In this document: piece after piece, positions 8,454-34,540 of the stretch
Position numbering within the stretch: the first letter of the stretch is position 1
Layout of the letters: each line of letters starts with the position of its first letter
Source of the DNA: Escherichia phage FriedrichZschokke
Direction: 5' to 3' (one strand)
Length of the DNA: 64,000 nucleotides
Sequence record: MZ501067
The notes under the pieces: generated by a model
Database searches by the model: none
Seen by the model: the letters and a program-made list of their open reading frames with translations, nothing else
Told to the model about the DNA's origin: nothing
Program-made: the position numbers and the translations under genes

Positions 8454-10136
8454 TTAAACCATTACAGTAAATCGACCAACTTTCTTCATTTGAAGATGCT
8501 GACCATATTCTTGTGGGTCATGGTCTTTATGCGAAATTATAAAAACATTAGTATTTTTCATTGAATTTATAATATTCGCTACACCTTTAATACCTTCGGC
8601 ATCAAATGACCCATCAAACACTTCATCGAGTATTAATGTACTAATACTAACACCAGATACAATAGAAGCAATATCACGCCAAGTAAATAAAAGAGCAATA
8701 TCAATTCTTGCCTTTTCACCTTCACTAAATGAAGCATAACTAAAATCTTCACGACCACGGGATTTAATTGTCTCATTAAATTCTTCATCTAATGTAAACA
8801 CATAATCCGCTTCCATTATTTTAAGATAGTGGTTAATCTGCTTATTAAATAATGGAATGTACTTTTTAATAATAGCACCTTTAATACCAGAATCTTTGAG
8901 CATATCAGTCAAAATTCCTCGGTGGTATTTTTCCATTACTAAATTAGTTTTTGTCTTAACAATTTTATCAAGTTCTTCTTGAAGCAGTGCTATTTCATCA
9001 GCATGGTCAATAAACTCAGAAGATGCTTTTTCTATAGCTGCTTTAACTTTTTTAGCTTTATCTACTGTCGTGATTAGAGATTGCTTTTTATTGCGAATAT
9101 CATTTGCCAACGACTGCTGGGTTTTAATATTATCTCGGTATTCATCAACAAGAACTTTTAAATTATCACGGTGTGTTGAAAGCTGTTCAAACGAATGCGT
9201 GCATTCAGAAACTTTATCTTTAATTTTAGAAACAACTTTATCACCGGAACTCAATTGTGACAAACAGGTTGGACATAATCCACCTTCGTGATACATATTA
9301 ATGACTTTATTATACGAGTCAATTTTTGATTTAATTAAAACTGCTTCTTGACCGATTTTATTAAATGCATCAGTCGGGTCTTCGTCTAAAACAATATTAA
9401 CTAATCTTTCATTAGCTTCTTCTATTTCCGATTTTAGCGTTCTAGCTTCTTTTGCCAAATCATCATACATATTTTGCAGACGAGTAAGATTGTCACCCGT
9501 TAATTTTTTCTGGCGTTCAACGTTATCATTATATATTTTAATTTGTTGGATAATACTATCTTTTTTAACATCAAGCACTTGGTTTTGTGAATTTAATTCA
9601 CGTATTAGTGCTTTATTAAGCTTATCCATTTCAGCTAATGTTCCTACCTCAAGCAGGTCTTCCACAAGCTTTCTTCGTGCAGGGGTCGACAAACCCATGA
9701 AAGGGGTATACCCTGCTGTACCAAGGACAACAATCTGCTTGAAACTGGCATATGACATTCCGATAAGCTGTTCAAATTCTGCTTGGAAATCTTTACTGCT
9801 GGCAGATTCATTAAGACGTGTACCGTTAACGGTGATTTCGAAAACGTTTGGTTTTTGTCCTCTTTTGATATAGTACTTTTTCTCATCATATTCCATCCAC
9901 AGTTCAACTAAAAGTTCTTTCTTATTTGTGCTGTTTATTAATTGACCTTTCTTTACATCACGAAATGGTTTGCCAAAAAGCCCAAATGTGATGGCTTCTA
10001 ACATAGTAGACTTACCACCGCCATTTCGTCCAGTAATAAGAGTTTTTTGAACCTTATCTAATTGAATGTCAATAGGATTTCCACCTACTGACATTATATT
10101 TTGATACCTAACTCGGTTTAATTTAAAATTCTTCAC
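8454..10136 (-). CDS. 46: Recombination nuclease subunit (Rad50/SbcC-like ATPase)
   Basis: 560 aa; Walker A GRNGGGKST, long coiled-coil middle, C-terminal signature/Walker B region. Confidence 0.93.
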   Translation of the reverse strand: MKNFKLNRVRYQNIMSVGGNPIDIQLDKVQKTLITGRNGGGKSTMLEAITFGLFGKPFRDVKKGQLINSTNKKELLVELWMEYDEKKYYIKRGQKPNVFEITVNGTRLNESASSKDFQAEFEQLIGMSYASFKQIVVLGTAGYTPFMGLSTPARRKLVEDLLEVGTLAEMDKLNKALIRELNSQNQVLDVKKDSIIQQIKIYNDNVERQKKLTGDNLTRLQNMYDDLAKEARTLKSEIEEANERLVNIVLDEDPTDAFNKIGQEAVLIKSKIDSYNKVINMYHEGGLCPTCLSQLSSGDKVVSKIKDKVSECTHSFEQLSTHRDNLKVLVDEYRDNIKTQQSLANDIRNKKQSLITTVDKAKKVKAAIEKASSEFIDHADEIALLQEELDKIVKTKTNLVMEKYHRGILTDMLKDSGIKGAIIKKYIPLFNKQINHYLKIMEADYVFTLDEEFNETIKSRGREDFSYASFSEGEKARIDIALLFTWRDIASIVSGVSISTLILDEVFDGSFDAEGIKGVANIINSMKNTNVFIISHKDHDPQEYGQHLQMKKVGRFTVMV

Positions 10137-17791: not shown

Positions 17792-19605
17792 TGGTGTTTA
17801 ACCCTATGCATGATTTCTTTATTTTTGCCGAGATTAAATCCGCGTTCGTTCGGATTTCCCAAATAACCACATGTTCTTCTTATTGTGTTCATCTTTTTAG
17901 GATCAGTTTCTCCACAAATAGAACAAACAAATCCATTTTCAGTAGGAGTCATTTCATGGGTACTTCCACATGTAAAACATTTATCTACTGGCATATTAAC
18001 ACCAAAATAATCTAAATGTTGTGCAGCATAATCCCATACAGCCTCAAGACCTTTTAAGTTATTTTTCATATCAGGAAGTTCAACATAAGAAATGTGACCA
18101 CCTGTCGCAATGAAATGATATGGCGCTTCACGAGAAATCTTTTCAAACTGAGTAATATTTTCTTCTACTGAAACGTGGAAACTGTTAGTGTACCAGCCTT
18201 TATCGGTAACATCTTTTACACTTCCATATTTTTCTGTATCAAGTTTACAGAAGCGATAACAAAGGTTTTCAGCAGGAGTAGAATACAAACTAAAAGCAAA
18301 CCCAGTTCTTTCAGTCCACTGTTTAAGACGAGCATTCATTTTAGTTAAAATTTCTCGTCCAATATCACGACCGACAAGAATATTCAATTCGTGAATACCA
18401 ATGTATCCTAAGGACACTGAACTTCTACCATTTTTAAATAACTCAATTATATCGTCATCAGGTTTAAGACGAACCCCGAATGCACCTTCTTGGTAAAGAA
18501 TAGGAGCAACAGTCGCTTTAACTCCTTTTAAGGAACTAATTCTACACATCAATGCTTCAAAACATAAATCCATTCGTTCATTGAACAATTCAACAAATTT
18601 CTGCTCATTGAATTGAGTTCCAATATAAGAATCTAATGCGATACGAGGAAGATTCAGTGTTACAACACCGAGATTATTACGTCCATCAAGAATTTCATTA
18701 CCGGTTGAATCTTTCCACACACTCAAGAAACTACGACAACCCATTGGAGAAACAGGAATAGATGAGCCGGTGATAGCTTTATTGTTCTTAGCCGAAATGA
18801 TGTCAGGATACATTCTTTTGCTTGCGCACTCTAAAGCAAGCTGCTTAATATCATAGTTCGGGTCGTCTTTATAAAGATTAATACCTTCTTCAACGAACAT
18901 AACAAGTTTAGGGAAAATAGGAGTTATCCCATCACGACCAAGACCTTTAATACGATTTTTCAGAATTGCTTTCTGAATCATTCGTTCAGTCCAGTCAGTT
19001 CCCGTACCAAATGTAATTGTTACAAAGGGTGTTTGTCCGTTTGAACTAAAGAGAGTATTTACTTCATATTCATAAGCTTGGAATGCATCGTATACATCTT
19101 TTTCTGTTTTAGATTGAGCATAATTCAATGCATCAGCGATTTGCCATTTTTCTGCATCCTCAATATGTTTTGCATAGGTGCGTTTAACATAAGGAGAAAG
19201 TACTTTATCTACATTAGCAAAAGTCGTTCCGCCGTATTGGTGGGAAGCAACCTGTGCAGTAATTTGTGCCATAATTGCAGTAGCAACGCCAATTGATTTA
19301 GGAGTTTCAATCTGCGCATTACCTAGCTTAAATCCGTTCTCAAGCATTCCTTTTAAATCTACTAAACAACAATTAGTAAATGGAAGAGCAGGGGAATAAT
19401 CAATATCGTGGAAATGAATAATTCCGCTTTCATGCGCTTTCATAATAAAAGACGGGACCATATTTTTGGCAATGTGTTTAGACACAATACCAGCCATAAG
19501 GTCCCGTTGAGTTGGAAAAACACGAGAATCTTTATTGGCATTCTCGTTTAAAAGGTCTTTATTAGTTTTATGAATCAATCCTTCAATTTCTTTTTCAATT
19601 GTCAT
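17788..19605 (-). CDS. nrdD: Anaerobic ribonucleoside-triphosphate reductase (class III), uninterrupted
   Basis: 605 aa continuous ORF; C-terminal glycyl-radical motif RRTCGYLG and Cys-rich Zn ribbon; no intron or endonuclease insert. Confidence 0.95.
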   Translation of the reverse strand: MTIEKEIEGLIHKTNKDLLNENANKDSRVFPTQRDLMAGIVSKHIAKNMVPSFIMKAHESGIIHFHDIDYSPALPFTNCCLVDLKGMLENGFKLGNAQIETPKSIGVATAIMAQITAQVASHQYGGTTFANVDKVLSPYVKRTYAKHIEDAEKWQIADALNYAQSKTEKDVYDAFQAYEYEVNTLFSSNGQTPFVTITFGTGTDWTERMIQKAILKNRIKGLGRDGITPIFPKLVMFVEEGINLYKDDPNYDIKQLALECASKRMYPDIISAKNNKAITGSSIPVSPMGCRSFLSVWKDSTGNEILDGRNNLGVVTLNLPRIALDSYIGTQFNEQKFVELFNERMDLCFEALMCRISSLKGVKATVAPILYQEGAFGVRLKPDDDIIELFKNGRSSVSLGYIGIHELNILVGRDIGREILTKMNARLKQWTERTGFAFSLYSTPAENLCYRFCKLDTEKYGSVKDVTDKGWYTNSFHVSVEENITQFEKISREAPYHFIATGGHISYVELPDMKNNLKGLEAVWDYAAQHLDYFGVNMPVDKCFTCGSTHEMTPTENGFVCSICGETDPKKMNTIRRTCGYLGNPNERGFNLGKNKEIMHRVKHQ

Positions 19606-20075
19606 TTTAAACTCTTTCTAAGCTGCTTCTTAAATGAAGCTATTAACTGTGTTTTGGTGTCAGATTCATTATATTCAAATCCTCTTTGAAGCATCTCGGC
19701 CATCATTTCCTCTTTTCCTAAACGAGAAAATTCCTTTGATTTATCTCCAACAAAGTTAGGGTGAATATTATTTTGGGTGTAATCGGATTTTAAATAAGTA
19801 AGTAAATTTTCTAACCATTCAAGATAATCAACACCTTGTCCCTTTAAGCCAGAACGATTAAATTTATGCTTCATTTGACCTTCTGCGGCATTGCAGAGAT
19901 TACAAAGCAATCCACGTACCTTTCCTGCTTTTGGTCCATTTAATTCATGGTCATGGTCGAGGTGATTAGCTTGAACGTCAGGATTTAGTTCTCGTTGGCA
20001 AATTAAGCATTTACCATTTTGTGCATCATAAAATTTCTGTTTTTCTTCTTTATATAATTTGCCAGTCAATAACAT
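19602..20075 (-). CDS. 49: Endonuclease VII (Holliday junction resolvase)
   Basis: 157 aa, MLLTGKLYKEEKQKFYDAQNGKCLICQREL...; sequence matches T4 endo VII as recalled. Confidence 0.92.
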   Translation of the reverse strand: MLLTGKLYKEEKQKFYDAQNGKCLICQRELNPDVQANHLDHDHELNGPKAGKVRGLLCNLCNAAEGQMKHKFNRSGLKGQGVDYLEWLENLLTYLKSDYTQNNIHPNFVGDKSKEFSRLGKEEMMAEMLQRGFEYNESDTKTQLIASFKKQLRKSLK

Positions 20076-20726: not shown

Positions 20727-21047
20727 TTATAGCGTAATCCATTCTCGTACTATCTGAGTTACTACACGTTCACGGGGCTCGACTAGTTCAACAGTCGGAA
20801 CTGCATAATACCAGTCAGAATGGTAAGAACCCGAACGGCATTCATTTACGGAAACATGTACGTTATGTTTTGGACTAAAATAAACACACTGACGATATTG
20901 ACATTTACCATCTTGCACCCAGTCTTCTATTTCGACAGGTTTAAGATAATCGGAAAAATCGAAATCATAGTTTTCCGAAAATGCATCATGGTCTTCAATG
21001 ATTTCGCTCAGAACTGCATCAACATCTAATTTATTTTCAATAGTCAT
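20727..21047 (-). CDS. Hypothetical protein (106 aa), acidic, Cys-containing
   Basis: ORF on the early strand. Confidence 0.5.
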   Translation of the reverse strand: MTIENKLDVDAVLSEIIEDHDAFSENYDFDFSDYLKPVEIEDWVQDGKCQYRQCVYFSPKHNVHVSVNECRSGSYHSDWYYAVPTVELVEPRERVVTQIVREWITL

Positions 21048-21267: not shown

Positions 21268-21446
21268 TTAGAAATAGACTTTTCACCGTTAGAATAATAA
21301 ACTTCAAGTTTAGCACGATTATTTTTAATTTGAATAACCTTTGCTGTCATCAAAGTTCCATACCCATAATAAACTGCAACTTCATCACCTACATATACCG
21401 CGCTTCCGCGGTAATCGTGAATATAGTCAGTTCCTTCGAGCATCAT
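21231..21446 (-). CDS. Hypothetical protein (71 aa)
   Basis: ORF with ATGA overlap to nrdC. Confidence 0.5.
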   Translation of the reverse strand: MMLEGTDYIHDYRGSAVYVGDEVAVYYGYGTLMTAKVIQIKNNRAKLEVYYSNGEKSISKWKYGDCMVKLG

Positions 21447-21706
21447 TTAAAATATTCTCGCAGTTGGTCAAATCCACCAATATGACTTCCATCAGGAGCA
21501 AATACCTGGGGCATTGTCAAGCCGATTTGAGTATCACGACCTAGTTTAGTCAGAAGCTCAGCAATTTTCTCATCATCAAAAACACCTTTTTCCGGCATAA
21601 TGTTGATAAATTCAAACGGCTGTTTCTTCACGGTCAAAAGACGTTTTGCATTATCGCAATACACACATTTATGAATGTTGCTATCATAACCATATACTTT
21701 AAACAT
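21443..21706 (-). CDS. nrdC: Thioredoxin (glutaredoxin-fold)
   Basis: 87 aa; CVYC active site (MFKVYGYDSNIHKCVYCDNAKRLL...); matches T4 thioredoxin. Confidence 0.9.
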   Translation of the reverse strand: MFKVYGYDSNIHKCVYCDNAKRLLTVKKQPFEFINIMPEKGVFDDEKIAELLTKLGRDTQIGLTMPQVFAPDGSHIGGFDQLREYFK

Positions 21707-21950: not shown

Positions 21951-22254
21951 TTTCTTCTCGGTCAAATCGGTGTTTACAATGGCGACATTTATAACGAAGA
22001 TTACTAGTCTGCCAATGGACCAATTGCACCTGTTCAGTACCGCATTCAGGGCAATTAGGAACGTTTTTAGAAGCTCTTTCACGTCGTTCAACCATAGCCA
22101 TAATAGCGTCCCAGGCCGGCGGTTTAAAATCTAAATCGTCGCAGCCGTGAATCTTTCCACGCATTTCCATATCATCTTCCTCACCAGCCATAATAATTTT
22201 AATTAAACTGGAATTACTTGAAGCTGCAATGTCTTCTAATAAACGCTTTTTCAT
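21937..22254 (-). CDS. Zinc-ribbon protein (105 aa)
   Basis: CPECG...CRHCKHRF four-Cys motif. Confidence 0.55.
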
Positions 22255-23180
22255 TTCAATACCTCAATAGCATTACGTAAACCATTTGCTTTTGCATTAA
22301 GAGCTTTTAACAATTTGGTGTGTTCTGCAATTTGGGCTTCAACTTCAATCAAACGGGCATTGAGATATTCACGTTCTTCACTCAGATTATCAACCTTTTC
22401 TACTTTAGGCTCTTTTACAACTGTCTTATATGTATTAGGGTTCTTCAGTTTAATTAGAATGCGTGAACTGTATAACATTGAACCATTATCTTCGGTTTCG
22501 TCATACATTTCCACTACGTCCATAATTTTTAACATCATGCGGAGTTTATAAGACAACGAACGAATAGTTTTGTTGTGCTTATTAATTTCTTTAGCTGTCA
22601 TGGTGCCAAGATTACGTGAGTAATAATAAGGAACCTGGATATTAATTAATACTGATGAACCACCTGGCTTGTGTGTTACTTCATCAGCAATAACCCAGTC
22701 CTTAACATGAACTGTATTTGTACGGTCATCGCCCGCGGTAAATAGTTTGCGAGCATGCTTAAAAAGCATATTCACTTGGTCATTGAATTGACAAGCAAAT
22801 TTATCAGCAAATTTAGTTTCAGGAATGGTAGAAAACCAATCAGCCAAATGAGTCTTTTTAACATCATTAACAATAGTAAATTCAACAAAATCGGTTATAG
22901 ATGTCTCAGATTTAATGAAGCTCGGCTTCATAAAGTTTTTAATGTTCTCATGAGCTACAGTAGAAGATAACATACGAGAACGTTTAAACCATTCAAGCAA
23001 ATTGCCTAACGAATGAGAATAAGCGTTTTGAGTATCTTTACAGATATGATTTTCCCGACCAACATATTGAAGGAAATCACGAAGAATATTATTGATTACT
23101 GCTCTGTGCCCGATCTGATAATTACGGTGTTTAGTAATAAGACTGTCAAAATAATCAATATAATGTTTACGAGTTTTCAT
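22251..23180 (-). CDS. Unknown-function protein with C-terminal coiled coil (A, 309 aa)
   Basis: N-terminal MKTRKHY...; last ~45 aa strongly heptad-like ([42 protein letters not shown]). Confidence 0.6.
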   Translation of the reverse strand: MKTRKHYIDYFDSLITKHRNYQIGHRAVINNILRDFLQYVGRENHICKDTQNAYSHSLGNLLEWFKRSRMLSSTVAHENIKNFMKPSFIKSETSITDFVEFTIVNDVKKTHLADWFSTIPETKFADKFACQFNDQVNMLFKHARKLFTAGDDRTNTVHVKDWVIADEVTHKPGGSSVLINIQVPYYYSRNLGTMTAKEINKHNKTIRSLSYKLRMMLKIMDVVEMYDETEDNGSMLYSSRILIKLKNPNTYKTVVKEPKVEKVDNLSEEREYLNARLIEVEAQIAEHTKLLKALNAKANGLRNAIEVLK

Positions 23181-23234
23181 GTTCTTCTCACTTGGTTAAT
23201 GATTTATACTCCGAGCCATCCTTGGCTTTAAATT

Positions 23235-24233
23235 TTACTTAATTAACTGTAAAGCCTGTTCTAAACGATCAAGACGATTAACAGATTCTTCCCAAATCCT
23301 TTTAGCCTGCTCATATTCTTTCTGCGCTTTATTAGAAATTTCTAGAACTTCTTTATAAGCTTTTTCTAATGCAATAACTTCTGGACGAATTTCTACCGGT
23401 TCAGGTGAATCATCAAGATTATTCATTAGTTCCTCAAGGGTAGTTTCTTCTTTAGGAGTATTCACAATTTCCTCACATTTTTGTTGATAAATTTCTTTAT
23501 CAGTAGGTGAATAAGCACATTTCACTTCACGAAGACTAATTACAATTTTATATCCTTCCCATCCGCATATATTCTTAAAAGGATATGTATGAATATTTTC
23601 TACCGTTTCCATACAAAGTAATGCAGTCTCTAACTGACGAGTTATAGTGCTAGCAATTGAGAAAAATTTATTAATATTCTTTTGGTTAGCGTTTGGTGTA
23701 AAAAATCCATAATTCACAAAAATAGCTACTTTATTTTCATCAAGATCATATTCTTTTACGATAATCATATCAGAAGCCAAAGGATGAATTTGACGATAAT
23801 CGCCATAACATAATTTAGAAGCTGATTTTAGAATTTGTCCTTTGAAAAGTCTGAAATTACTAATCCAACGGCGAGTAAAAATATTCTCAGGGTCTTCTTT
23901 ATTAAGATGATAAGAATTAACATCACCGAACCAATTATATCCTACTACATCTTTGGTTCGTTTAATTTCTTTCCCAAAATTACCAAGAATATCCCGATTA
24001 ACCAAATATGAAAGAAGACGAGACTCTTTAAAGGTTTTCTTGATAACATCTTTATCTACACGGCTAGAAATTTTACGAATTTCATGAATAAATTTAGCAG
24101 AAGAAACAATACTTGCATCAACACTATTGAGCCACTGATTGATAATAGAAAGAACGCTATTTTGACCAAACATCGGTATAGCTTTATCATCAATAACTCT
24201 ATTGAATGATTTAATATATTCGTTGCGAGTCAT
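23235..24233 (-). CDS. Unknown-function protein with C-terminal coiled coil (B, ~332 aa)
   Basis: Start placed at MTRNEYIKSF (downstream of the promoter); C-terminal ...KAQKEYEQAKRIWEESVNRLDRLEQALQLIK. Confidence 0.6.
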   Translation of the reverse strand: MTRNEYIKSFNRVIDDKAIPMFGQNSVLSIINQWLNSVDASIVSSAKFIHEIRKISSRVDKDVIKKTFKESRLLSYLVNRDILGNFGKEIKRTKDVVGYNWFGDVNSYHLNKEDPENIFTRRWISNFRLFKGQILKSASKLCYGDYRQIHPLASDMIIVKEYDLDENKVAIFVNYGFFTPNANQKNINKFFSIASTITRQLETALLCMETVENIHTYPFKNICGWEGYKIVISLREVKCAYSPTDKEIYQQKCEEIVNTPKEETTLEELMNNLDDSPEPVEIRPEVIALEKAYKEVLEISNKAQKEYEQAKRIWEESVNRLDRLEQALQLIK

Positions 24234-24254
24234 ATTAATCTCCTCAGTAGAAAG

Positions 24255-24295
24255 TAAGAACATTATACCACATCCTTGTGGCGAAGTAAACTAGT
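24255..24295 (-). promoter_or_regulatory. Early promoter
   Basis: Minus strand: -35 TTTACT, 17 bp spacer, consensus -10 TATAAT (24262-24267). Confidence 0.5.
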
Positions 24296-25310
24296 TTAGT
24301 GCATTTAGTGCGTTGTTCAATTTAGAACGTTGCTTCGTGAGATTTTTTACTTTTTCTTGAGCTTTTTCTAGCATCTTTTCAGCTTCTAACGCTTCATTAG
24401 TTGCTTTAACGAGTTCATCATCTACTGCCTTGATAGACTTCTCAATCGCATCCGCGTGCCATTTTTCAACAGGTTTAAGACTAGGATTTTCAACAGGAAG
24501 AAAATTCACTTTATTAAATTTCCATGCATCTTTATTACCTGAACTATACATCCAAAATTTAGGATCGTTTGATGAGCAATTAGATAAATTTAAGTTATCT
24601 TGTACTTCCTGCTTTTTCTCTTGCGTGACTTCGTCTTTTCTCAAAAAATCATATTTAAATGAAACGATCATATCAAGTTCATATGTTGTTGTATGTTCCC
24701 AATTTCGCTCAAAACGAGGTAAAATCTTAGATTGAACAGCAGCAACAACATCCATATACTTAAATGCTTCTGTCAGCTGTGATTTAAGACATTCACAAAT
24801 TGAACGAGAATTTTTAGTATTAGGTTTAAAGCTAATTCGTGCAGTTCTATTATTTTCTTTAGATGGTCTTACTTCCATTTGAAGAGTATAACCATCAAAT
24901 TTCAGATTCTTTAAGTTAATATCAGAGCCTTTTAATCGACTAGCAGTAGACAAAATTTGCTTTAATTGTTTACGAAATAGAGCAATAAATCTCCATTCAA
25001 TACGATAATGATTTGGATTAAAAAATCCTGTTGATAAATCAACCTTACTCTGACCAACGCCTTGAACAAATAGAGGATTTTTATAATCAATAGTTTTACA
25101 GAAATCGGTGAGCTGCTCACGAGCAGTCATTTGTGTAATATATCCCGCTTTACTAAAATGACGTAACCATTCACTGCTATTCATATACTTAAAGTGAATG
25201 GAACTATTAACTCTATCAGGGTCTAAATTATTTTGGTACAAAAATGTCATAACATTACGGGTATAGCTGGCATTACGAACCATATCTTCAATTTGAGAAC
25301 GAGTTTTCAT
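24291..25310 (-). CDS. Unknown-function protein with C-terminal coiled coil (C, 339 aa)
   Basis: N-terminal MKTRSQIEDM...; C-terminal ...EALEAEKMLEKAQEKVKNLTKQRSKLNNALNALN. Confidence 0.6.
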   Translation of the reverse strand: MKTRSQIEDMVRNASYTRNVMTFLYQNNLDPDRVNSSIHFKYMNSSEWLRHFSKAGYITQMTAREQLTDFCKTIDYKNPLFVQGVGQSKVDLSTGFFNPNHYRIEWRFIALFRKQLKQILSTASRLKGSDINLKNLKFDGYTLQMEVRPSKENNRTARISFKPNTKNSRSICECLKSQLTEAFKYMDVVAAVQSKILPRFERNWEHTTTYELDMIVSFKYDFLRKDEVTQEKKQEVQDNLNLSNCSSNDPKFWMYSSGNKDAWKFNKVNFLPVENPSLKPVEKWHADAIEKSIKAVDDELVKATNEALEAEKMLEKAQEKVKNLTKQRSKLNNALNALN

Positions 25311-25318
25311 AGTGTTCC

Positions 25319-26227
25319 TTAAGATTTAAGTAAATCAACAATTTTAATTAATTTTTCACGCTCAGATTTAGCTTTACTACTCAATCCAGATAGTCTGAAA
25401 ATTTCATCGTCATACTGTTGAATAGAAATATTCAGCTCTTCAATTTGCTTATTAAAATAATCAATTTGCTCAGAATGTTTTTCATTACTGCGAACTGGTA
25501 CAGGTTTTGTAGGCAATTTAGTTAAACTGGATTCATCCGGGCGATAAATTAAAATACAACTTGAACCAATCGGGCATTTAGCACCAGACACATATTCTAA
25601 TGTTCCGGCTTCTTTTAAAACTTCAAAAGCTAAACAGAGATGATGCCCCATATTAACATAATCTGTAGAGCGAGCTCTGACGTAATAATCATCGCCGCGA
25701 ATACTAAATTTAAAGCATTTAAGGTCTTCTGTATTATTGGTCTTAAAAATCATTTGTTTATCTAGACCTTTAGCTAATCGAGCGCCTAATGCTAATAATC
25801 GTCGTTGATTTTCCCACAAATCTGCGATCATTTGGTCAAATGATAATTTCGGCATTAGTCGACCGTAAAGATCATAGCCTTTATTATAATTGCGAAGAAT
25901 TTCACTCGCGTTAATACGAGACAATGCTCCAATTTTATTAAGGGCTTTCATGATGCGATTAGATAAACCCATTCCAGACCCGTTTGTTCGTTGTAAATGT
26001 TTATCTAATCCAAACCCAATATCAACTTTAAATTTATCTAAAATTTCAGCATGAACATCTCTGTCAATAACATTCAAATCCAAAGTTGGGTTAAATCTAT
26101 GAAAAAATTTATCTGGCTCTCCACGACGAAGTACAGTCCATTCATTCAATTTTTTATTAACTAAAGATTTAATTACTGCATTGACATTATTAATTACTAC
26201 TGACATATTTTCCTCACTCAATTTCAA
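25319..26227 (-). CDS. Unknown-function protein with C-terminal coiled coil (D, 302 aa)
   Basis: C-terminal ...QIEELNISIQQYDDEIFRLSGLSSKAKSEREKLIKIVDLLKS. Confidence 0.6.
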   Translation of the reverse strand: MKLSEENMSVVINNVNAVIKSLVNKKLNEWTVLRRGEPDKFFHRFNPTLDLNVIDRDVHAEILDKFKVDIGFGLDKHLQRTNGSGMGLSNRIMKALNKIGALSRINASEILRNYNKGYDLYGRLMPKLSFDQMIADLWENQRRLLALGARLAKGLDKQMIFKTNNTEDLKCFKFSIRGDDYYVRARSTDYVNMGHHLCLAFEVLKEAGTLEYVSGAKCPIGSSCILIYRPDESSLTKLPTKPVPVRSNEKHSEQIDYFNKQIEELNISIQQYDDEIFRLSGLSSKAKSEREKLIKIVDLLKS

Positions 26228-26644: not shown

Positions 26645-26680
26645 AGAACCATTATACCATCCTTGGTATAAAGCGGTTAT
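26645..26680 (-). promoter_or_regulatory. Middle-type promoter (MotA box GCTTTA, 12 bp, TATAAT)
   Basis: Minus strand reads ccGCTTTAtaccaaggatggTATAATgg. Confidence 0.45.
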
Positions 26681-27204
26681 GCGAGTACCGTCTTTAACCG
26701 TTCTTCAAACTTCCGAAGAGTATTTTGGCGTTCAGCTCTTTGCTTTTTGTAAGTTTCAATACGCTCTGAAATGAGAGTGTATCGTTCATTTACTGATTCT
26801 TTCATAAAATCAGGAATTTCACGAGAAGCTTTAATCTCGTCAAATTTATCAATAACAGCTTGCTCTTCAGCAATTAAGTTATCATACATCAAAATATCTT
26901 TCTTGATGAACTCAATATCTTCTTGAGTTACACGAGATAACTTAGATGCTTTATCCTTTTTGTACTGTTCATTAGTATCACGAGACCAGTGTAATGTACG
27001 ATTTTTATTCGTATTCTTATAAATTTCTACAATACCAATCTCATCAATAATAACGATCCAATTCCAACGGGATTTGTAAATTTGTCCTCCATCAACTGTG
27101 ATTTCACCTCCGATTGAGATGTCATTAAAGAACTTGCTTTGTGCTTCAGATTTAAATTTACCATCGTTGTAATTTACCAAGTTGAAAATATCTTTAGCGT
27201 TCAT
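26677..27204 (-). CDS. Hypothetical protein (175 aa)
   Basis: ORF with GGAGG Shine-Dalgarno; early promoter upstream. Confidence 0.55.
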   Translation of the reverse strand: MNAKDIFNLVNYNDGKFKSEAQSKFFNDISIGGEITVDGGQIYKSRWNWIVIIDEIGIVEIYKNTNKNRTLHWSRDTNEQYKKDKASKLSRVTQEDIEFIKKDILMYDNLIAEEQAVIDKFDEIKASREIPDFMKESVNERYTLISERIETYKKQRAERQNTLRKFEERLKTVLA

Positions 27205-27668: not shown

Positions 27669-28637
27669 TTATTTCAGAAGAGTAACCTCAGCAATTTCTT
27701 CCCAACCGTTTTTGTCGGTCATAATAAAGTCAGCAAGATAAAGAGCAGTACGCAGTGAAACATTACGTAAACGGTTAACATTGACTTTCATCCATGATAA
27801 TGCTTTATAAGTTTCTTCATCAGAAAGACCGCGTTTTTGCATCATGTCAGTTGAAAGAATAACATCTTCAACCCTGACCATAATTTCTTCATTAGTGTGA
27901 ACACCCAAATCCAAATAAACTGAGCGGGACACTAATGCTTGTAAATGTGGAGCAAGTTTAGTACCACGGTCTAATTCGCGGTCAATGTCAACGTTTGTGA
28001 TAAAAACAATCGTTCCTTTAAATTCAAACTCACGCTCAATGCCTTTTTCTTCTAAGTAAGAAGATGCGGTGCTCCAGCAGACTTTACGGGTCTCTCCAGT
28101 GTCCAGAGCGGCTTTTAGAAGATTAAGAATGTCCATATCAGAGAAAACATCCACATCATCAATCAAAAGGACATAATTCTCTTCACGATTATTCCAAAGC
28201 TGTTCATAAAGACCGATACCAGAGATTTTACCATTAATGCTTTTATATTCAATGTATCCAATATCATTTGCTTTATTTAAAGCTTTATCTAAAGAATACG
28301 TTTTACCAATACCCGCCGCACCAGAGATAATTAATGAACGAATGTTTCCGTTAATAATACCATTCGTCATCATTCCCATAACATTAAATCTTTTATTAAT
28401 GCGGGTTTTCATGTCTTCATACGATTCTTTAACTTCTTCAACTTTTACACCATCATATGAAATGTCTGATTTGTAAACCCAAACACCGCGACGCTTACCG
28501 TCAATTTCAACAAAAACTTTACCATCTCCTTGTGCATCTACCGGAGCATTATCTGGGAACCATTCGCCTAAGAGCTCAAAAGTTCCAGAGATTTCTTTAC
28601 CGAAGTAGATACCCTTATTGATAGTTACAGTTTTCAT
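27669..28637 (-). CDS. P-loop NTPase (AAA-like), unknown function
   Basis: 322 aa; Walker A GAAGIGKT and Walker B VLLIDDVD; ~100 aa N-terminal domain precedes the ATPase core. Confidence 0.65.
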   Translation of the reverse strand: MKTVTINKGIYFGKEISGTFELLGEWFPDNAPVDAQGDGKVFVEIDGKRRGVWVYKSDISYDGVKVEEVKESYEDMKTRINKRFNVMGMMTNGIINGNIRSLIISGAAGIGKTYSLDKALNKANDIGYIEYKSINGKISGIGLYEQLWNNREENYVLLIDDVDVFSDMDILNLLKAALDTGETRKVCWSTASSYLEEKGIEREFEFKGTIVFITNVDIDRELDRGTKLAPHLQALVSRSVYLDLGVHTNEEIMVRVEDVILSTDMMQKRGLSDEETYKALSWMKVNVNRLRNVSLRTALYLADFIMTDKNGWEEIAEVTLLK

Positions 28638-29013: not shown

Positions 29014-29562
29014 TCATTTATAATAACTTCGGTGGTTTTCAAGATAGACCTTCTCAAGGAAGTCATCCCAGAAACTCATGTCTACTGTTTTAGGCATACC
29101 GTTCTTAGAAGCTTCAGTAGATGCTGCTTCTACTTGATCGACCACATCTTCCAAAAACTCTTGAACTGTTTTAAATGGATGTTTACCCAACTTCACGTCG
29201 AGAATAAATGGAGCATCTTGAAGTGGATAGACTAAGTCACCAGTTTTGTAAATTTCCAATAGTTGGAGTCCACCACGACAAGCATGACTTAGTGCTTTCC
29301 AATCAATGCCTTCATTGGCTTCGGCCTTACGAGCACGTTCACCGTATTCAGCATCTAATTTGTTCAGTGACTGCTTAAGCTCAATAAGAGAAAGCGTTGT
29401 CTGATATTTACGACCCAACACAGTGTAGAACGTTTGTGGGCCTGTTTTCTCATGATTATGGAACACCCATTCACAGAATTCGTTTTCTGGAAGACGATGC
29501 TTAATATCTTCAACTTTAGTACGACGCTGCTTAATGGAACCGTCTTCTTGGTAATCAACCAT
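29014..29562 (-). CDS. Hypothetical protein (182 aa)
   Basis: ORF starting at the ATG embedded in the CAATG junction at 29560-29564; plausible globular sequence throughout. Confidence 0.55.
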   Translation of the reverse strand: MVDYQEDGSIKQRRTKVEDIKHRLPENEFCEWVFHNHEKTGPQTFYTVLGRKYQTTLSLIELKQSLNKLDAEYGERARKAEANEGIDWKALSHACRGGLQLLEIYKTGDLVYPLQDAPFILDVKLGKHPFKTVQEFLEDVVDQVEAASTEASKNGMPKTVDMSFWDDFLEKVYLENHRSYYK

Positions 29563-30026
29563 TGCTCAGGGATTTGATTAACTACTTTCAATACATCACG
29601 TAATGCAGCCAAACGAGAACCCTTGACGCCGTATTTAGAAGCTTGCTTGCGGACATATCCTAAATATGATTTCATGTTAGTCGTATAAAAACGAGAACGG
29701 TTGTCTTGAATAAACTTCCACACATCAGGCAAATCGGATTTAACCACTAGTTCAGGTGGAGTGTGAAGCATATCCAACGCTACAGTTTCACCATCTGCTG
29801 CTAATTTAAAGAAATATTTAAGACTGTATAGTTCATGGTCAATATCATCTTTAGTGTTTTTAGATGATGTATTGTTAGTATTTTTACTCATATGCTCTTT
29901 AACATTTCCGATAAGAATATCACGAGCAGGAGGAACAAAGATTTCTTTAAAATCTACATCAGATTCTGGGGTAGAAGTTCCATAAAGATGACTACCAAAA
30001 TAGCTTTTCATTACTGTTTTCATCAT
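29364..30026 (-). CDS. Nucleotidyltransferase-fold protein (Pol-beta superfamily), 3' end uncertain
   Basis: N-terminal GSHLYGTSTPESDVDF (GS...DxD NTase signature). The ORF runs 66 codons past a CAATG junction into low-complexity sequence overlapping the next gene; the native end is probably near 29562. Confidence 0.5.
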   Translation of the reverse strand: MMKTVMKSYFGSHLYGTSTPESDVDFKEIFVPPARDILIGNVKEHMSKNTNNTSSKNTKDDIDHELYSLKYFFKLAADGETVALDMLHTPPELVVKSDLPDVWKFIQDNRSRFYTTNMKSYLGYVRKQASKYGVKGSRLAALRDVLKVVNQIPEQWLITKKTVPLSSVVLKLKILSIVFQKTNSVNGCSIIMRKQAHKRSTLCWVVNIRQRFLLLSLSSH

Positions 30027-30484
30027 TCAGCCTTATATTCAATAACAGGACATACTTTAGCTTTACGAGCTTTTAAAAATTCAACGATAACCGATTTCTT
30101 GGGTTGAATAGGAGGTAAACCTTTATACGCCCTATCAATATTTTCTACGTGTAAAGCATAATCCTTTTTCCATTTATAATCTTTATATTTTTCACGCAAA
30201 TGTGCAGGAATAACAAATGAACCGATAATAAGTAAAACAACCAAAAGCGCAAGTATAAATGCTGATGGAAGCAAAGTCCATAAACTACCAAAAATAATCC
30301 AACGTTGTAGGCTTTCTGCACAAATAATTGTTAGCCCTACGAGTATAGCACATCCAAAAATAGAAACGAAAAATGTAGGAATGGCAATAGACCAAAAATA
30401 TGCGCACAGTGTCTTAGGTCGTTGCCATTCATCGTTAAACAATTTGAATAATTTATAGTGCCAAGAGTTTTCATTAATAATCAT
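30023..30484 (-). CDS. Membrane protein (153 aa)
   Basis: Two to three hydrophobic helices (FWSIAIPTFFVSIFGCAILVGLTIICA; LLPSAFILALLVVLLIIGSFVI). Confidence 0.55.
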   Translation of the reverse strand: MIINENSWHYKLFKLFNDEWQRPKTLCAYFWSIAIPTFFVSIFGCAILVGLTIICAESLQRWIIFGSLWTLLPSAFILALLVVLLIIGSFVIPAHLREKYKDYKWKKDYALHVENIDRAYKGLPPIQPKKSVIVEFLKARKAKVCPVIEYKAE

Positions 30485-30486
30485 AA

Positions 30487-31008
30487 TTATTCTTTCATTG
30501 AAGGCGTAACGGTTGTTAAATACTTAATCATAGCTTCAGCTTCTGATTTTGATAGTGAAATTTCTTCACCGTTTTGGCGAATAGAAACAAAATCTGGATG
30601 ACGATCACCACCAGCTTTTAAAACACACATATAAGTATCAGCTTCGCCTTCAATATTTGAAATGATTGAAGCAGTTCCACATGAATGAGGTTTTTGATAA
30701 ATCAATACAGCTTTTCTTCCACCATTTGACTGTTCATAGGCTTTTAATACATCAAGCAAATCAGTTCTTTTATCAATAGCTAAGATGTTATTTTCATCTT
30801 CAATATTAAATCCTTCGGATACTTCATAAAGAGTTACCCATAAATCACCGATGTCAATAACAGCATTTACTTTTCCACGGCTTTCAAGAGTATGACAAAT
30901 TTTCTTGATTTCGTCATAACTCATTTTAATAATATCATCTCCTTGACTAAGGAAGATGTCATTTTTAAATTCAACACGAATTAAACCGCTTCCACTTGAA
31001 ATAAACAT
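30487..31008 (-). CDS. Hypothetical protein (173 aa), paralog 1 of a tandem pair
   Basis: C-terminus ...ISLSKSEAEAMIKYLTTVTPSMKE resembles the C-terminus of the adjacent 184 aa ORF. Confidence 0.55.
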   Translation of the reverse strand: MFISSGSGLIRVEFKNDIFLSQGDDIIKMSYDEIKKICHTLESRGKVNAVIDIGDLWVTLYEVSEGFNIEDENNILAIDKRTDLLDVLKAYEQSNGGRKAVLIYQKPHSCGTASIISNIEGEADTYMCVLKAGGDRHPDFVSIRQNGEEISLSKSEAEAMIKYLTTVTPSMKE

Positions 31009-31014
31009 ATTTCC

Positions 31015-31569
31015 TCACTTTGAAATCATAGTTGGAATAACAGAATCAAGATAAGTCTTTAGTGCAATAGCTTCGTCTTTGGTAAATGTGACAATATGTG
31101 CTCGAGAATCATCAATTTGACGAATAGTTAAGACATCTCCATCTTCATAACATTTTGATACGTTTAAAACAGTTTCATCATTCTGATTGCAAGCGTTAGT
31201 AATAATAGCATTGCAATTTTTAAACCATTTTAAACTATGTTTTCTTTCATTAGAATAATAAAAATATTTAATCTTATCTATAAAACTATCCCAATGGATA
31301 ACTGATAAGCATATTGACTCGCTTTCAATATTAAATCCTGGGCATGAAGAATAAAAATGAATTTTATGCTCATCATTAATGCTTACAATTTTATCAGTAT
31401 AAGGATTTTCAATTTGGGTTAAATGAATGATTTCACTAGGCGTAAAATATAGCATATCGTCTTCTTGTGTCAAACGATACATATTATTTACTTTTTCTAT
31501 AGCCAATTCACCAAAAAGTGAACTAACTTCTAATACTAATCGTTTCATATTAATCCTTTTTATTGGCAC
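31015..31569 (-). CDS. Hypothetical protein (184 aa), paralog 2 of a tandem pair
   Basis: C-terminus ...VTFTKDEAIALKTYLDSVIPTMISK. Confidence 0.55.
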   Translation of the reverse strand: MPIKRINMKRLVLEVSSLFGELAIEKVNNMYRLTQEDDMLYFTPSEIIHLTQIENPYTDKIVSINDEHKIHFYSSCPGFNIESESICLSVIHWDSFIDKIKYFYYSNERKHSLKWFKNCNAIITNACNQNDETVLNVSKCYEDGDVLTIRQIDDSRAHIVTFTKDEAIALKTYLDSVIPTMISK

Positions 31570-33958: not shown

Positions 33959-34540
33959 CTAACCGAGCTTTTTAGTTAATTCATTCCAATGTTTTCTACA
34001 CAAAGAAACATAAATTTCATCACCAATACAGATTTGATTACCTTCTTTAACTGGTGTTCCATCTTCCATTAATCGAGCTGTCATAATCGCTTTTTTGCCG
34101 CAATGACAAACTGCCTTTAGTTCAATAAGTTTATCTGCAATCGCTAAAAGTTCTTTAGAACCTTCAAACAATTTTCCAGCGAAATCAGTCCTTAATCCAT
34201 AAGCCATAACAGGAACATTATATGTATCAACAATTCGGCTCAATTGATGTACTTGTTCAGTTTTTAAAAATTGGGCTTCATCTACAAATACGCAATGAAT
34301 ATCTTTTTGTGCTTCAGCCCATTTATAGAACTCGAAAATATCCATATCATCTGTAATAATATTCGCTTCCTGTTTAATTCCAATGCGAGAAACGACTTCG
34401 CAGACAGAATCGCGAGTATCAATAGCAGGCTTAAGAACTAATACACTCATTCCACGTTCTTTATAATTATGTGCAGCAGTCAAAAGAGAAGCAGATTTTC
34501 CAGCATTCATTGCTGCATAAGTAAAAATTAAACTCGCCAT
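33959..34540 (-). CDS. tk: Thymidine kinase
   Basis: 193 aa; P-loop NAGKSAS; C-terminal Zn-binding Cys pairs; matches T4 Tk. Confidence 0.93.
   Translation of the reverse strand: MASLIFTYAAMNAGKSASLLTAAHNYKERGMSVLVLKPAIDTRDSVCEVVSRIGIKQEANIITDDMDIFEFYKWAEAQKDIHCVFVDEAQFLKTEQVHQLSRIVDTYNVPVMAYGLRTDFAGKLFEGSKELLAIADKLIELKAVCHCGKKAIMTARLMEDGTPVKEGNQICIGDEIYVSLCRKHWNELTKKLG

What the first reader, a model, noticed from the sequence alone, without database searches (positions are those of the whole stretch)
22251..26227. Four adjacent ~300-340 aa genes that each end in a ~45-residue coiled coil
Four consecutive minus-strand ORFs (309, ~332, 339 and 302 aa) have unrelated-looking N-terminal bodies but each ends in a strongly heptad-like, charged C-terminal helix. 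Three of them begin M(K)TR-. This looks like a diversified paralog family sharing one oligomerisation or docking module, sitting in the variable stretch between nrdC and tk. I do not recognise the family; the shared-module reading is inference.
Basis: partly seen in the sequence, partly recalled or inferred. Interest (0 to 1): 0.72.

Follow-up and report, generated by a model that had tools for sequence, protein, structure and literature searches.

The report
T4 nrdC.3–nrdC.6: coiled-coil-tailed paralog array
Four neighbouring early genes of a T4-like phage are diverged copies of one gene, each with a globular head, a floppy linker and a coiled-coil tail. One copy (nrdC.5) is already known to disarm the bacterial Dsr1 immune protein, so the other three are good candidates for further anti-immunity factors.

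Summary
The window is a Tequatrovirus (T4-like phage). The four minus-strand ORFs are the orthologues of T4 nrdC.3, nrdC.4, nrdC.5 and nrdC.6 (309, 332, 339 and 295 aa).

Each ends in a 45–59-residue helix:
- The heptad register is unbroken, with hydrophobic period 3.45–3.50 (p 0.0002–0.014 against shuffles).
- AlphaFold2 models it as one long helix behind a disordered linker (nrdC.5 and nrdC.6 modelled).

The bodies only look unrelated. Four lines of evidence say all four are paralogues, though the nrdC.6 link is weaker by sequence:
- profile-profile comparison,
- bridging sequences,
- the same order of secondary-structure elements in the two models,
- shared Foldseek hits.

They form one superfamily restricted to T4-like phages. 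Pfam and PHROGs currently split it into three or more families.

The tail is the most conserved part. All regions are under purifying selection. The nrdC.3 head is an allele replacement relative to T4.

Published work shows that T4 nrdC.5 neutralises the Dsr1 defence and that the nrdC.1–6 block is dispensable.

My best reading is a counter-defence paralogue array with variable heads on a constant oligomerising stalk. Oligomerisation, and any function for nrdC.3, nrdC.4 and nrdC.6, are inferred rather than shown. Interest is moderate.

The parts
22251..23180 (-). nrdC.3 orthologue, 309 aa; head, short linker and C-terminal heptad helix
   Evidence: ORF. phrog_1435 at 3.8e-115. T4 synteny. Full-length alignment with nrdC.4. 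hhalign to the nrdC.4 family 98.4%.
22254..22406 (-). nrdC.3 C-terminal heptad helix (residues ~259-309)
   Evidence: Heptad score at or above the 90th percentile of window ORFs over residues 259-309. Period 3.45, p = 0.014. a positions = VRLILAI, d positions = LLVHLLL.
22298..23044 (-). Divergent head cassette of nrdC.3 (allele replacement relative to T4)
   Evidence: DNA identity to T4 is 53-70% here, against mostly 93-99% in the adjacent genes. This allele is ~75% identical in protein to Mosigvirus nrdC.3 but only 60% to T4 nrdC.3.
23235..24233 (-). nrdC.4 orthologue, 332 aa (start at ATG 24233, not 24263)
   Evidence: phrog_1435 at 4.2e-167. Close homologues carry PF26897 Phage_T4_Y04OP.
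23238..23381 (-). nrdC.4 C-terminal heptad helix (residues ~285-332)
   Evidence: residues 285-332. Period 3.45, p = 0.0002. 62% cross-genus identity against 45% for the head. dN/dS 0.04.
24262..24290 (-). Early-promoter-like site upstream of nrdC.4 (GTTTACT-17-TATAAT with TG)
   Evidence: Consensus scan and sequence. Consensus match only; function not shown.
24291..25310 (-). nrdC.5 orthologue, 339 aa (DUF7235); T4 NrdC.5 is a published anti-Dsr1 factor
   Evidence: PF23882 at 5e-123. ~91% identical to T4 nrdC.5. AF2 model m163c2652fc9f, pLDDT 73.8. Function from PMC9391042.
24486..24632 (-). nrdC.5 disordered linker (residues 227-275)
   Evidence: pLDDT below 50 over residues 227-275. Least conserved region within Tequatrovirus, 75.9%.
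24294..24473 (-). nrdC.5 C-terminal helix (residues 280-339)
   Evidence: AF2 single helix 280-338, tail 10-residue-block mean pLDDT 81-92. Top heptad score in the window. Period 3.50, p = 0.0002.
25319..26206 (-). nrdC.6 orthologue, 295 aa (ATG 26206; the mechanical ORF starts at TTG 26227)
   Evidence: phrog_2257 at 2.4e-152. Homologues carry PF26899 Phage_T4_Y05B. AF2 model m505f9d7a3abb, pLDDT 82.4.
25322..25474 (-). nrdC.6 C-terminal helix (residues 245-295)
   Evidence: AF2 helix 245-294. Period 3.45, p = 0.0026. 65% cross-genus identity against 37% for the head. dN/dS 0.01.

Best explanation
These are the T4 genes nrdC.3, nrdC.4, nrdC.5 and nrdC.6. They form a tandem array of four anciently duplicated, strongly diverged paralogues (13-24% pairwise identity) of one protein superfamily found only in T4-like phages (Straboviridae).

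**Shared architecture (shown).** Each protein has three parts:
- an N-terminal alpha/beta head of about 220 residues (helix pair, small hairpin, helix pair, then beta-beta-alpha-beta-beta);
- a disordered linker of variable length (about 15-60 residues);
- a 45-59-residue amphipathic heptad helix ending in a family-wide motif, roughly (Q/E)R.KL..A(L/I)..LK.

**Proposed function (inferred).** I propose they are early, dispensable counter-defence proteins.
- The conserved helix self-associates into a coiled coil, so several heads hang from one stalk on flexible tethers.
- The diversified head of each paralogue binds and blocks a different host immune protein.

**What is shown and what is not.** For nrdC.5 the target is known genetically: it neutralises the SIR2-family NADase defence Dsr1. 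Paralogy, architecture, constraint on the tail, head variability and dispensability are all shown. Oligomerisation by the helix, direct binding of Dsr1 by the head, and any anti-defence role for nrdC.3, nrdC.4 and nrdC.6 are inferred.
For: **Identity and synteny.** 97-99% DNA identity to many Tequatroviruses. T4 gene order gp49-pin-49.2-nrdC...rI-tk.

**Paralogy.**
- nrdC.3 and nrdC.4 both fall in phrog_1435 and align over their full length.
- hhalign on family alignments gives 98.4% (C3-C4), 94.4% (C4-C5), 93.8% (C3-C5) and 87.1% (C5-C6).
- With tails removed it gives 98.3, 94.2, 80.5 and 59.9%.
- Unrelated neighbouring proteins score 1.4% or less.
- Bridging proteins: P0191 hits phrog_26858, phrog_2351 (the C5 family, 3.9e-11) and phrog_1435 (the C3/C4 family, 2.3e-9). 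P0198 hits phrog_2257 (the C6 family, 4.3e-14), phrog_26858 and phrog_2351.
- Conserved motifs appear across all families in alignments A2, A3 and A5.

**Structure.**
- The AF2 models of nrdC.5 and nrdC.6 have the same element order, a linker with pLDDT below 50, and a long terminal helix.
- Both models hit the same uncharacterised 309-334-aa proteins of Pectobacterium PM2, Klebsiella Mineola, Citrobacter Merlin and Yersinia fHe-Yen9-01 in BFVD. The nrdC.6 model also hits a 308-aa phage fPS-65 protein that is probably nrdC.3-type (assignment not checked).

**Coiled coil.**

**Constraint.**
- The tail is the most conserved region across genera: 62 vs 45% (C4), 40 vs 25% (C5) and 65 vs 37% (C6).
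- dN/dS is 0.01-0.27 in every region.

**Head variability.** The nrdC.3 head is replaced relative to T4.

**Accessory nature.**
- Copy number varies by genus: four in Tequatrovirus, three in Gaprivervirus and Dhakavirus, two in Mosigvirus, one in more distant phages. The genes always lie downstream of nrdC.
- Natural deletions and fusions occur.
- Loss of the nrdC.1-6 block is viable in T4 (PMC9825161).

**Function.**
- Expressing T4 nrdC.5 restores plating of a deletion mutant on cells carrying Dsr1 (PMC9391042).
- The neighbouring gene 49.2 inhibits OLD in T6 (PMC13096335).
Against: - Only nrdC.5 has any functional evidence, and even there no direct interaction or mechanism has been published.
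- No oligomer was modelled or measured. A long amphipathic helix could instead dock on a partner.
- The middle heptads of nrdC.4 and nrdC.5 carry Ala, Ser and aromatic residues at core positions, which is not a textbook parallel dimer.
- dN/dS gives no sign of pervasive positive selection in the heads within Tequatrovirus.
- The sequence link of nrdC.6 to nrdC.3 and nrdC.4 is weak on its own (11% and 2.5%). It rests on nrdC.5, the bridging proteins and structure.
- T4's own nrdC.6 is frameshifted before the end of the helix, so that copy is dispensable on laboratory hosts.
Confidence: 0.55

Rival explanations
1. The conserved C-terminal helix is a docking element, not a self-association element. 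All paralogues use it to bind one common partner, either a host machine or a phage protein. The heads then deliver different activities to that partner.
For: - The terminal motif (..R.KL..A(L/I)..LK) is conserved across families that share under 20% identity elsewhere, including distant members P0191, P0195 and P0198.
- The tail is more constrained than the head. Simple homo-oligomerisation needs only the heptad pattern, not specific residues.
- Ala-rich core positions in nrdC.5 and nrdC.4 would suit packing against another helix.
Against: - No candidate partner is known.
- The period of 3.45-3.50 and the L/I/V-rich a/d positions over 6-8 heptads are typical of self-associating coiled coils.
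- Motif conservation could equally reflect a folding or register-setting element.
Confidence: 0.2
2. The paralogues hetero-oligomerise through their related tails into one mixed complex that carries several different heads.
For: - All four tails end in the same register and the same terminal motif.
- The genes are adjacent and co-oriented. An early-promoter-like site lies upstream of nrdC.4, and nrdC.5 is described as an early gene.
Against: - Copy number ranges from one to four between genera, and natural single-gene losses occur, so each copy must work without the others.
- nrdC.5 alone, expressed from a plasmid, restores infection in a phage lacking part of the block.
- Tail sequences outside the last ~10 residues differ strongly between paralogues (tail-only comparison).
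Confidence: 0.1
3. The family is not a counter-defence family. Its members are early host-takeover or regulatory proteins, and the Dsr1 phenotype of nrdC.5 is indirect, for example by suppressing whatever phage signal triggers Dsr1.
For: - No direct NrdC.5-Dsr1 interaction has been published.
- Purifying selection throughout fits a housekeeping-like accessory role.
Against: - The whole block is dispensable on laboratory hosts.
- It is variable in content between close relatives.
- It lies next to other counter-defence genes: 49.2 (anti-OLD) and pin (host Lon protease inhibitor).
- This is the usual signature of host-range and anti-defence genes.
Confidence: 0.15
4. The four are unrelated proteins that each happen to end in a charged helix.
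For: Pairwise BLASTP finds only nrdC.3-nrdC.4. Pfam and PHROGs keep three separate families.
Against: - Profile-profile comparison, including heads only.
- Bridging sequences.
- Shared secondary-structure order.
- Shared remote Foldseek hits.
- Same length class, same N-terminal TR.EY motif and same terminal motif.
Confidence: 0.02

Closest known systems
T4 NrdC.5 (Pfam DUF7235, PF23882), the anti-Dsr1 counter-defence gene (Srikant, Guegler & Laub, eLife 2022, PMC9391042)
   Same: The ORF at 24291-25310 is its orthologue: PF23882 at 5e-123, about 91% amino-acid identity, same position. It is an early, dispensable accessory gene.
   Different: The mechanism of NrdC.5 is unpublished. The window allele differs at about 9% of residues, so its specificity is unverified. 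The paper does not describe the coiled-coil architecture or the relationship to nrdC.3, nrdC.4 and nrdC.6 (none in the searchable literature).
Pfam Phage_T4_Y04OP (PF26897), Phage_T4_Y05B (PF26899) and DUF7235; PHROGs 1435, 2351, 2257
   Same: These are the database families that contain the four proteins. Pfam already joins nrdC.3 and nrdC.4.
   Different: The databases treat them as three unrelated families of unknown function. Here they are linked, together with phrog_26858, 12512, 23608 and 31182, into one superfamily with one architecture.
DSAD1, the phage inhibitor of the SIR2 NADase defence DSR2
   Same: A phage protein that neutralises a defence-associated sirtuin, as NrdC.5 does for Dsr1. 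Published work shows DSAD1 binds DSR2 directly and represses it (abstracts).
T4 counter-defence clusters (dmd-tifA-adfA 'anti-TA island'; gp49.2 anti-OLD next to this locus)
   Same: Early accessory genes that cluster, are dispensable on laboratory strains, vary between relatives, and are gained or lost by microhomology recombination.
   Different: Those clusters hold unrelated small proteins. This locus is a tandem array of paralogues of 300-340 aa sharing one fold and a coiled-coil tail.

Membership tests
DUF7235 / T4 NrdC.5 (PF23882) | Whole-protein match to the Pfam model above its gathering score (30 bits) | tested here: met
   nrdC.5 ORF: 410.9 bits, 5e-123, model 1-307 of 307. nrdC.3, nrdC.4 and nrdC.6 give no PF23882 hit at E up to 1, so they are not members of this Pfam family in the strict sense.
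DUF7235 / T4 NrdC.5 (PF23882) | Neutralises Dsr1-mediated defence | not testable with these tools
   Shown for T4 NrdC.5 only (PMC9391042). Needs plaque assays for this allele and for the paralogues.
Phage_T4_Y04OP (PF26897) / phrog_1435 | Full-length profile match | tested here: met
   nrdC.3 at 3.8e-115 and nrdC.4 at 4.2e-167 to phrog_1435. Close homologues of nrdC.4 carry precomputed PF26897. The local Pfam copy lacks this model, so the Pfam match itself is indirect.
Phage_T4_Y05B (PF26899) / phrog_2257 | Full-length profile match | tested here: met
   nrdC.6 at 2.4e-152 to phrog_2257. Homologues at 44-55% identity carry precomputed PF26899. The Pfam model is not in the local copy.
Single nrdC.3-6 superfamily (proposed here) | Detectable homology of the heads, not only the tails | tested here: met
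   Heads only: C3-C4 98.3%, C4-C5 94.2%, C3-C5 80.5%, C5-C6 59.9%. Bridging proteins. C6 against C3 and C4 directly is weak (0.2-3.4%).
Single nrdC.3-6 superfamily (proposed here) | Same fold and architecture | tested here: met
   The nrdC.5 and nrdC.6 models share element order, linker and terminal helix. They share four remote BFVD hits. No direct superposition tool was available.
Coiled coil | Long uninterrupted helix with heptad (3.5-residue) hydrophobic periodicity and hydrophobic a/d positions | tested here: met
   No standard predictor (COILS, MARCOIL) was available, so a simple in-house score was used, with gp46 (Rad50-like) as positive control.
Coiled coil | Actual self-association into a two- to four-stranded bundle | not testable with these tools
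   Only monomer prediction is offered. Needs AlphaFold-Multimer or AF3, or SEC-MALS or crosslinking.
Thioredoxin/glutaredoxin (the GenBank label on many homologues) | Thioredoxin fold and CxxC active site; Pfam thioredoxin or glutaredoxin match | tested here: not met
   No such Pfam or NCBIfam hit. No CxxC in any of the four translations. A different predicted fold. The label is carried over from the neighbouring nrdC gene.
DSAD1-type anti-DSR inhibitors | Sequence or fold similarity to DSAD1 | tested here: not met

The most novel reading that the evidence does not exclude
The family is a 'variable head on a constant stalk' counter-defence platform.
- The coiled-coil tail makes multivalent bundles whose tethered heads lock oligomeric abortive-infection effectors, such as the Dsr1 NADase, in the inactive state.
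- Each paralogue covers a different immune system.
- New specificities arise by swapping head cassettes between the conserved N-terminal and tail anchors. The nrdC.3 allele replacement and the natural in-frame nrdC.6::nrdC.4 hybrid would be examples.
- A bolder version: the head is a decoy of a phage structural protein of the tail-terminator-like alpha/beta class, sensed by the defence system.
Probability: 0.15. Interest if true: 0.75.

Novelty: new member of a known kind. Interest (0 to 1): 0.45.

Why it matters
T4 is the reference phage, yet about half of its genes have no known function.
- Linking nrdC.3, nrdC.4 and nrdC.6 to the one characterised member (nrdC.5, anti-Dsr1) turns three 'hypothetical proteins' into specific candidates for counter-defence factors.
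- It predicts a common mechanism, an oligomeric stalk with a variable target-binding head, that simple truncations and head swaps can test.
- It merges at least seven PHROG families and three Pfam families into one Straboviridae-wide superfamily.
- It corrects a widespread 'thioredoxin' misannotation.
- If the paralogues target different defence systems, the locus would help explain host-range differences among therapeutic T4-like phages.

Tried and rejected
- **Pairwise BLASTP of the four proteins.** Only nrdC.3-nrdC.4 was detectable. Shallow-alignment hhalign was inconclusive for the rest. Deeper family alignments were needed.
- **Word-indexed protein search with nrdC.5.** It returned only homologues of 81% identity or more.
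- **The search for related loci in viral contigs.** It returned only the same four genera.
- **Exhaustive HMM search of 1.84 billion representatives.** It found just 25 hits. The family is therefore narrow at sequence level, with no cellular homologues. Hits labelled E. coli, Shigella, Enterococcus or Bacillus mostly sit on ~167-kb T4-like contigs or small fragments, and I read them as phage sequence within those assemblies, which I did not verify.
- **PDB sequence searches.** Nothing was found except a spurious coiled-coil match to vaccinia A27.
- **NCBIfam.** No meaningful hits.
- **nrdC.8 as a fifth member.** Rejected. It ends in a charged helix, but hhalign gives under 1% and its periodicity is not significant (p = 0.12).
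- **Neighbours of distant family members (259-aa and 241-aa proteins in L020 and L021).** Not related; they served as negative controls.
- **P0192, an nrdC.5 tail on an unrelated N-terminus.** It lies on an 803-bp contig only, so it cannot be told apart from an assembly chimera.
- **Region-wise dN/dS as a test for positive selection in the heads.** Purifying selection everywhere.
- **Literature.** No paper mentions nrdC.3 or nrdC.6, and the only mention of nrdC.4 is a genome announcement. No paper mentions these Pfam names.

Full report
**What the window is**

The 4.7-kb stretch around the finding is 97-99% identical to many Tequatrovirus (T4-like) genomes. T4 gene order is kept: gp49 (endonuclease VII) 19602-20075, pin, 49.2, nrdC 21443-21706, nrdC.1, nrdC.2, the four ORFs, nrdC.7 to nrdC.11, mobD.1, rI, and tk near 33959.

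The four ORFs are the orthologues of T4 nrdC.3, nrdC.4, nrdC.5 and nrdC.6. All four are 'hypothetical' in the T4 record. Many GenBank records label them 'thioredoxin'. I reject that label: there is no thioredoxin or glutaredoxin family hit, no CxxC motif, and a different predicted fold.

**Checking the observation**

The ORFs are at 22251-23180 (309 aa), 23235-24233 (332 aa), 24291-25310 (339 aa) and 25319-26206 (295 aa), all on the minus strand.

Two starts need correcting:
- For nrdC.4, the mechanical ORF begins at 24263. That ATG lies inside the -10 element of an early-promoter-like site (GTTTACT-17-TATAAT, 24290-24262). The ATG at 24233 has a GAGGAG Shine-Dalgarno sequence.
- For nrdC.6, the ATG at 26206 has a GAGGA Shine-Dalgarno sequence and matches the T4 annotation.

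For the tails I wrote a simple heptad score (hydrophobic a/d, polar or charged elsewhere, Pro and Gly penalised).
- Among 72 ORFs of at least 100 aa in the window, nrdC.5 ranks 1st, nrdC.3 3rd, nrdC.4 5th and nrdC.6 8th.
- Rank 2 is the SMC/Rad50-like ORF at 8454-10136 (gp46), which is a suitable positive control.
- The register runs unbroken through the last 45-55 residues and is the same at all four C-termini.
- Fourier analysis of hydrophobicity peaks at 3.45-3.50 residues, the coiled-coil value. Against 5000 shuffles of the same residues, p = 0.014, 0.0002, 0.0002 and 0.0026.
- The a and d positions are mostly L, I, V and A.

AlphaFold2 (23-row superfamily alignments) models nrdC.5 with mean pLDDT 73.8 and nrdC.6 with 82.4. 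In both, the tail is a single straight helix (residues 280-338 and 245-294, tail 10-residue-block mean pLDDT 81-93). It sits behind a linker with pLDDT below 50 (227-275 and 229-241).

**Are the four related?**

BLASTP sees only nrdC.3-nrdC.4 (27% identity over 160 residues). PHROGs puts those two in one family and the others in two further families. Newer Pfam releases likewise have three families: Phage_T4_Y04OP, DUF7235 and Phage_T4_Y05B.

I collected orthologues from other Tevenvirinae genera and ran an exhaustive HMM search of 1.84 billion representative proteins. That search found only 25 relatives. With the resulting family alignments, hhalign gives the following:

| Pair | Full length | Aligned ranges | Tails removed |
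|---|---|---|---|
| nrdC.3-nrdC.4 | 98.4% | – | 98.3% |
| nrdC.4-nrdC.5 | 94.4% | 65-325 vs 49-325 | 94.2% |
| nrdC.3-nrdC.5 | 93.8% | 65-309 vs 52-339 | 80.5% |
| nrdC.5-nrdC.6 | 87.1% | 51-127 vs 88-145 | 59.9% |

Unrelated neighbouring proteins score 1.4% or less, so the signal is not a coiled-coil artefact.

Bridging proteins connect the families directly:
- P0191 (a Klebsiella-phage protein in phrog_26858) also hits the nrdC.5 family at 3.9e-11 and the nrdC.3/4 family at 2.3e-9.
- P0198 hits the nrdC.6 family at 4.3e-14, phrog_26858 at 7e-11, and the nrdC.5 family.

Multiple alignments show shared motifs:
- N-terminal TR.EY;
- [FL]K.S..LS...A...L.NF.K;
- F...F..N...LL..A.RL..GD;
- L..AL..M..VE;
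- the terminal ..R.KL..A(L/I)..LK.

The two AF2 models have the same order of elements: helix pair, small hairpin, helix pair, beta-beta, alpha, beta-beta, linker, long helix.

In Foldseek against BFVD, both models hit the same uncharacterised 309-334-aa proteins of Pectobacterium PM2, Klebsiella Mineola, Citrobacter Merlin and Yersinia fHe-Yen9-01. The nrdC.6 model also hits a 308-aa protein of phage fPS-65 that is probably nrdC.3-type (I did not check this assignment), as well as proteins of Acinetobacter and Enterobacter T4-like phages.

I conclude that all four are paralogues of one Straboviridae-restricted superfamily. nrdC.6 is the most diverged copy. Its direct sequence link to nrdC.3 and nrdC.4 is weak (11% and 2.5%), so that link rests on nrdC.5, the bridging proteins and structure.

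**Evolutionary behaviour**

Copy number varies by genus, and the genes are always just downstream of nrdC and nrdC.1/2:
- Tequatrovirus has four copies.
- Gaprivervirus and Dhakavirus have three (nrdC.6-, nrdC.5- and nrdC.4-like).
- Mosigvirus has two (nrdC.6- and nrdC.3-like).
- Two distant metagenomic T4-like contigs each show one copy.

The tail is the most conserved part across genera: 62 vs 45% for nrdC.4, 40 vs 25% for nrdC.5, and 65 vs 37% for nrdC.6.

Within Tequatrovirus all regions are under purifying selection, with dN/dS 0.01-0.27. The nrdC.4 and nrdC.6 tails are at 0.04 and 0.01. These are therefore functional genes.

The nrdC.3 head is an allele replacement. DNA identity to T4 drops to 53-70% between 22298 and 23044, while the adjacent genes (nrdC.4 to nrdC.8) are mostly 93-99% identical. 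The window allele is closer to Mosigvirus nrdC.3 (about 75%) than to T4 nrdC.3 (60%).

Deletions and fusions between members occur in nature:
- Salmonella phage Manna carries an in-frame hybrid, nrdC.6(1-~272)::nrdC.4(250-332).
- ACG-C40 and Pinarejo carry remnants.
- A metagenomic protein (P0056) joins a truncated nrdC.5 (from about residue 145) to the C-terminal part of nrdC.3.
- T4's own nrdC.6 is frameshifted within the tail.

**Function**

The only experimental evidence is for nrdC.5. A T4 clone that had lost it could not plate on ECOR17, or on MG1655 carrying ECOR17 dsr1. Expressing nrdC.5 from a plasmid restored plating (PMC9391042). Loss of the nrdC.1-6 block is viable in genome-reduced T4 (PMC9825161). 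The nearby gene 49.2 inhibits the OLD defence in T6 (PMC13096335).

My best-supported model has two parts:
- the conserved tail self-associates into a coiled coil, giving a multivalent bundle;
- the diversified heads, on flexible linkers, bind and block host immune proteins, one specificity per paralogue, with Dsr1 the target of nrdC.5.

Architecture, paralogy, constraint, variability and dispensability are shown. Oligomerisation, direct binding, and the roles of nrdC.3, nrdC.4 and nrdC.6 are inference.

The main rivals are:
- a tail that docks on a common partner, which the family-wide terminal motif and the Ala-rich cores would suit;
- hetero-oligomers among the paralogues, which variable copy number and the stand-alone activity of nrdC.5 make unlikely;
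- a non-defence early function with an indirect effect on Dsr1.

**Comparison with what is known, and verdict**

The genes themselves are long-known T4 ORFs, and one has a published counter-defence phenotype, so this is not a new kind of system.

Three things are not in the databases or the searchable literature:
- the unification of three Pfam families and at least seven PHROG families into one superfamily;
- the head-linker-coiled-coil architecture;
- the resulting nomination of nrdC.3, nrdC.4 and nrdC.6 as paralogues of a counter-defence protein.

I rate this as a new member of a known kind, with moderate interest (0.45).

Noticed in passing
L001 12067-12894 (T4 nrdC.6) compared with window 25319-26206: The T4 reference nrdC.6 (275 aa) ends ...KQIEELIFLFNNMMMKFSDYLD. 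The window and other phages read ...KQIEELNISIQQYDDEIFRLSG...LLKS. The T4 copy is frameshifted and lacks most of the terminal helix, so it may be a pseudogene in the laboratory strain.
   Followed up: partly
window 22298-23044: The nrdC.3 head is only 53-70% identical in DNA to T4, while the adjacent genes (nrdC.4 to nrdC.8) are mostly 93-99% identical. At least three nrdC.3 alleles exist: window type, T4 type (60% amino-acid identity) and Mosigvirus type (~75%). This points to cassette-like replacement between conserved ends.
   Followed up: yes
L026 3215-4252 (Salmonella phage Manna); L024 3805-4216 (ACG-C40); L025 3930-4160 (Pinarejo); protein P0056: Natural rearrangements inside the array. 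Manna has an intact 345-aa in-frame hybrid: nrdC.6 head plus half its helix, joined to the nrdC.4 linker and tail at a (D/E)EI microhomology. ACG-C40 has an out-of-frame nrdC.5/nrdC.3 remnant. Pinarejo has an internal deletion of nrdC.6. P0056 is an nrdC.5::nrdC.3 fusion.
   Followed up: yes
window 26677-27204 (nrdC.8): This 175-aa protein also ends in a charged helix and has the 4th-highest heptad score in the window. Its 3.5-residue periodicity is not significant (p = 0.12), and hhalign shows no relation to the family.
   Followed up: yes
window 20727-21047: Orthologue of T4 gene 49.2 (94% DNA identity). The T6 version was recently shown to inhibit the OLD defence (PMC13096335). Counter-defence genes therefore lie on both sides of nrdC.
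   Followed up: partly
GenBank records under: nrdC.1 to nrdC.10 homologues are widely annotated 'thioredoxin'. The label appears to be carried over from the gene names. None of the four proteins studied here has a thioredoxin fold, family hit or CxxC motif.
   Followed up: yes
window 30024-31014: The mobD homing-endonuclease gene of T4 has no match in the window. About 1 kb of other sequence lies between nrdC.11 (29014-30023) and mobD.1 (31015-31546).
   Followed up: no
window 27669-28637 (nrdC.10): This 322-aa protein gives weak P-loop matches (AAA_14, AAA_16, nSTAND3), all below the Pfam cut-offs. It could be an ATPase of unknown role within the same accessory block.
   Followed up: no
L023 120-641 (protein P0192): A 173-aa metagenomic protein has last 51 residues near-identical (one substitution) to the nrdC.5 tail but an unrelated N-terminal 120 residues. 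It lies on an 803-bp contig, so a real module transfer cannot be told apart from an assembly chimera.
   Followed up: partly
window 24236-24246 and 26210-26216: The ribosome-binding sites of nrdC.4 (GAGGAG) and nrdC.6 (GAGGAA) were noted. The nrdC.4 site contains GGAG, the RegB endoribonuclease target typical of T4 early mRNAs (PMC1702504 lists nrdC.8 in this context). That would fit early expression with rapid shut-off.
   Followed up: no
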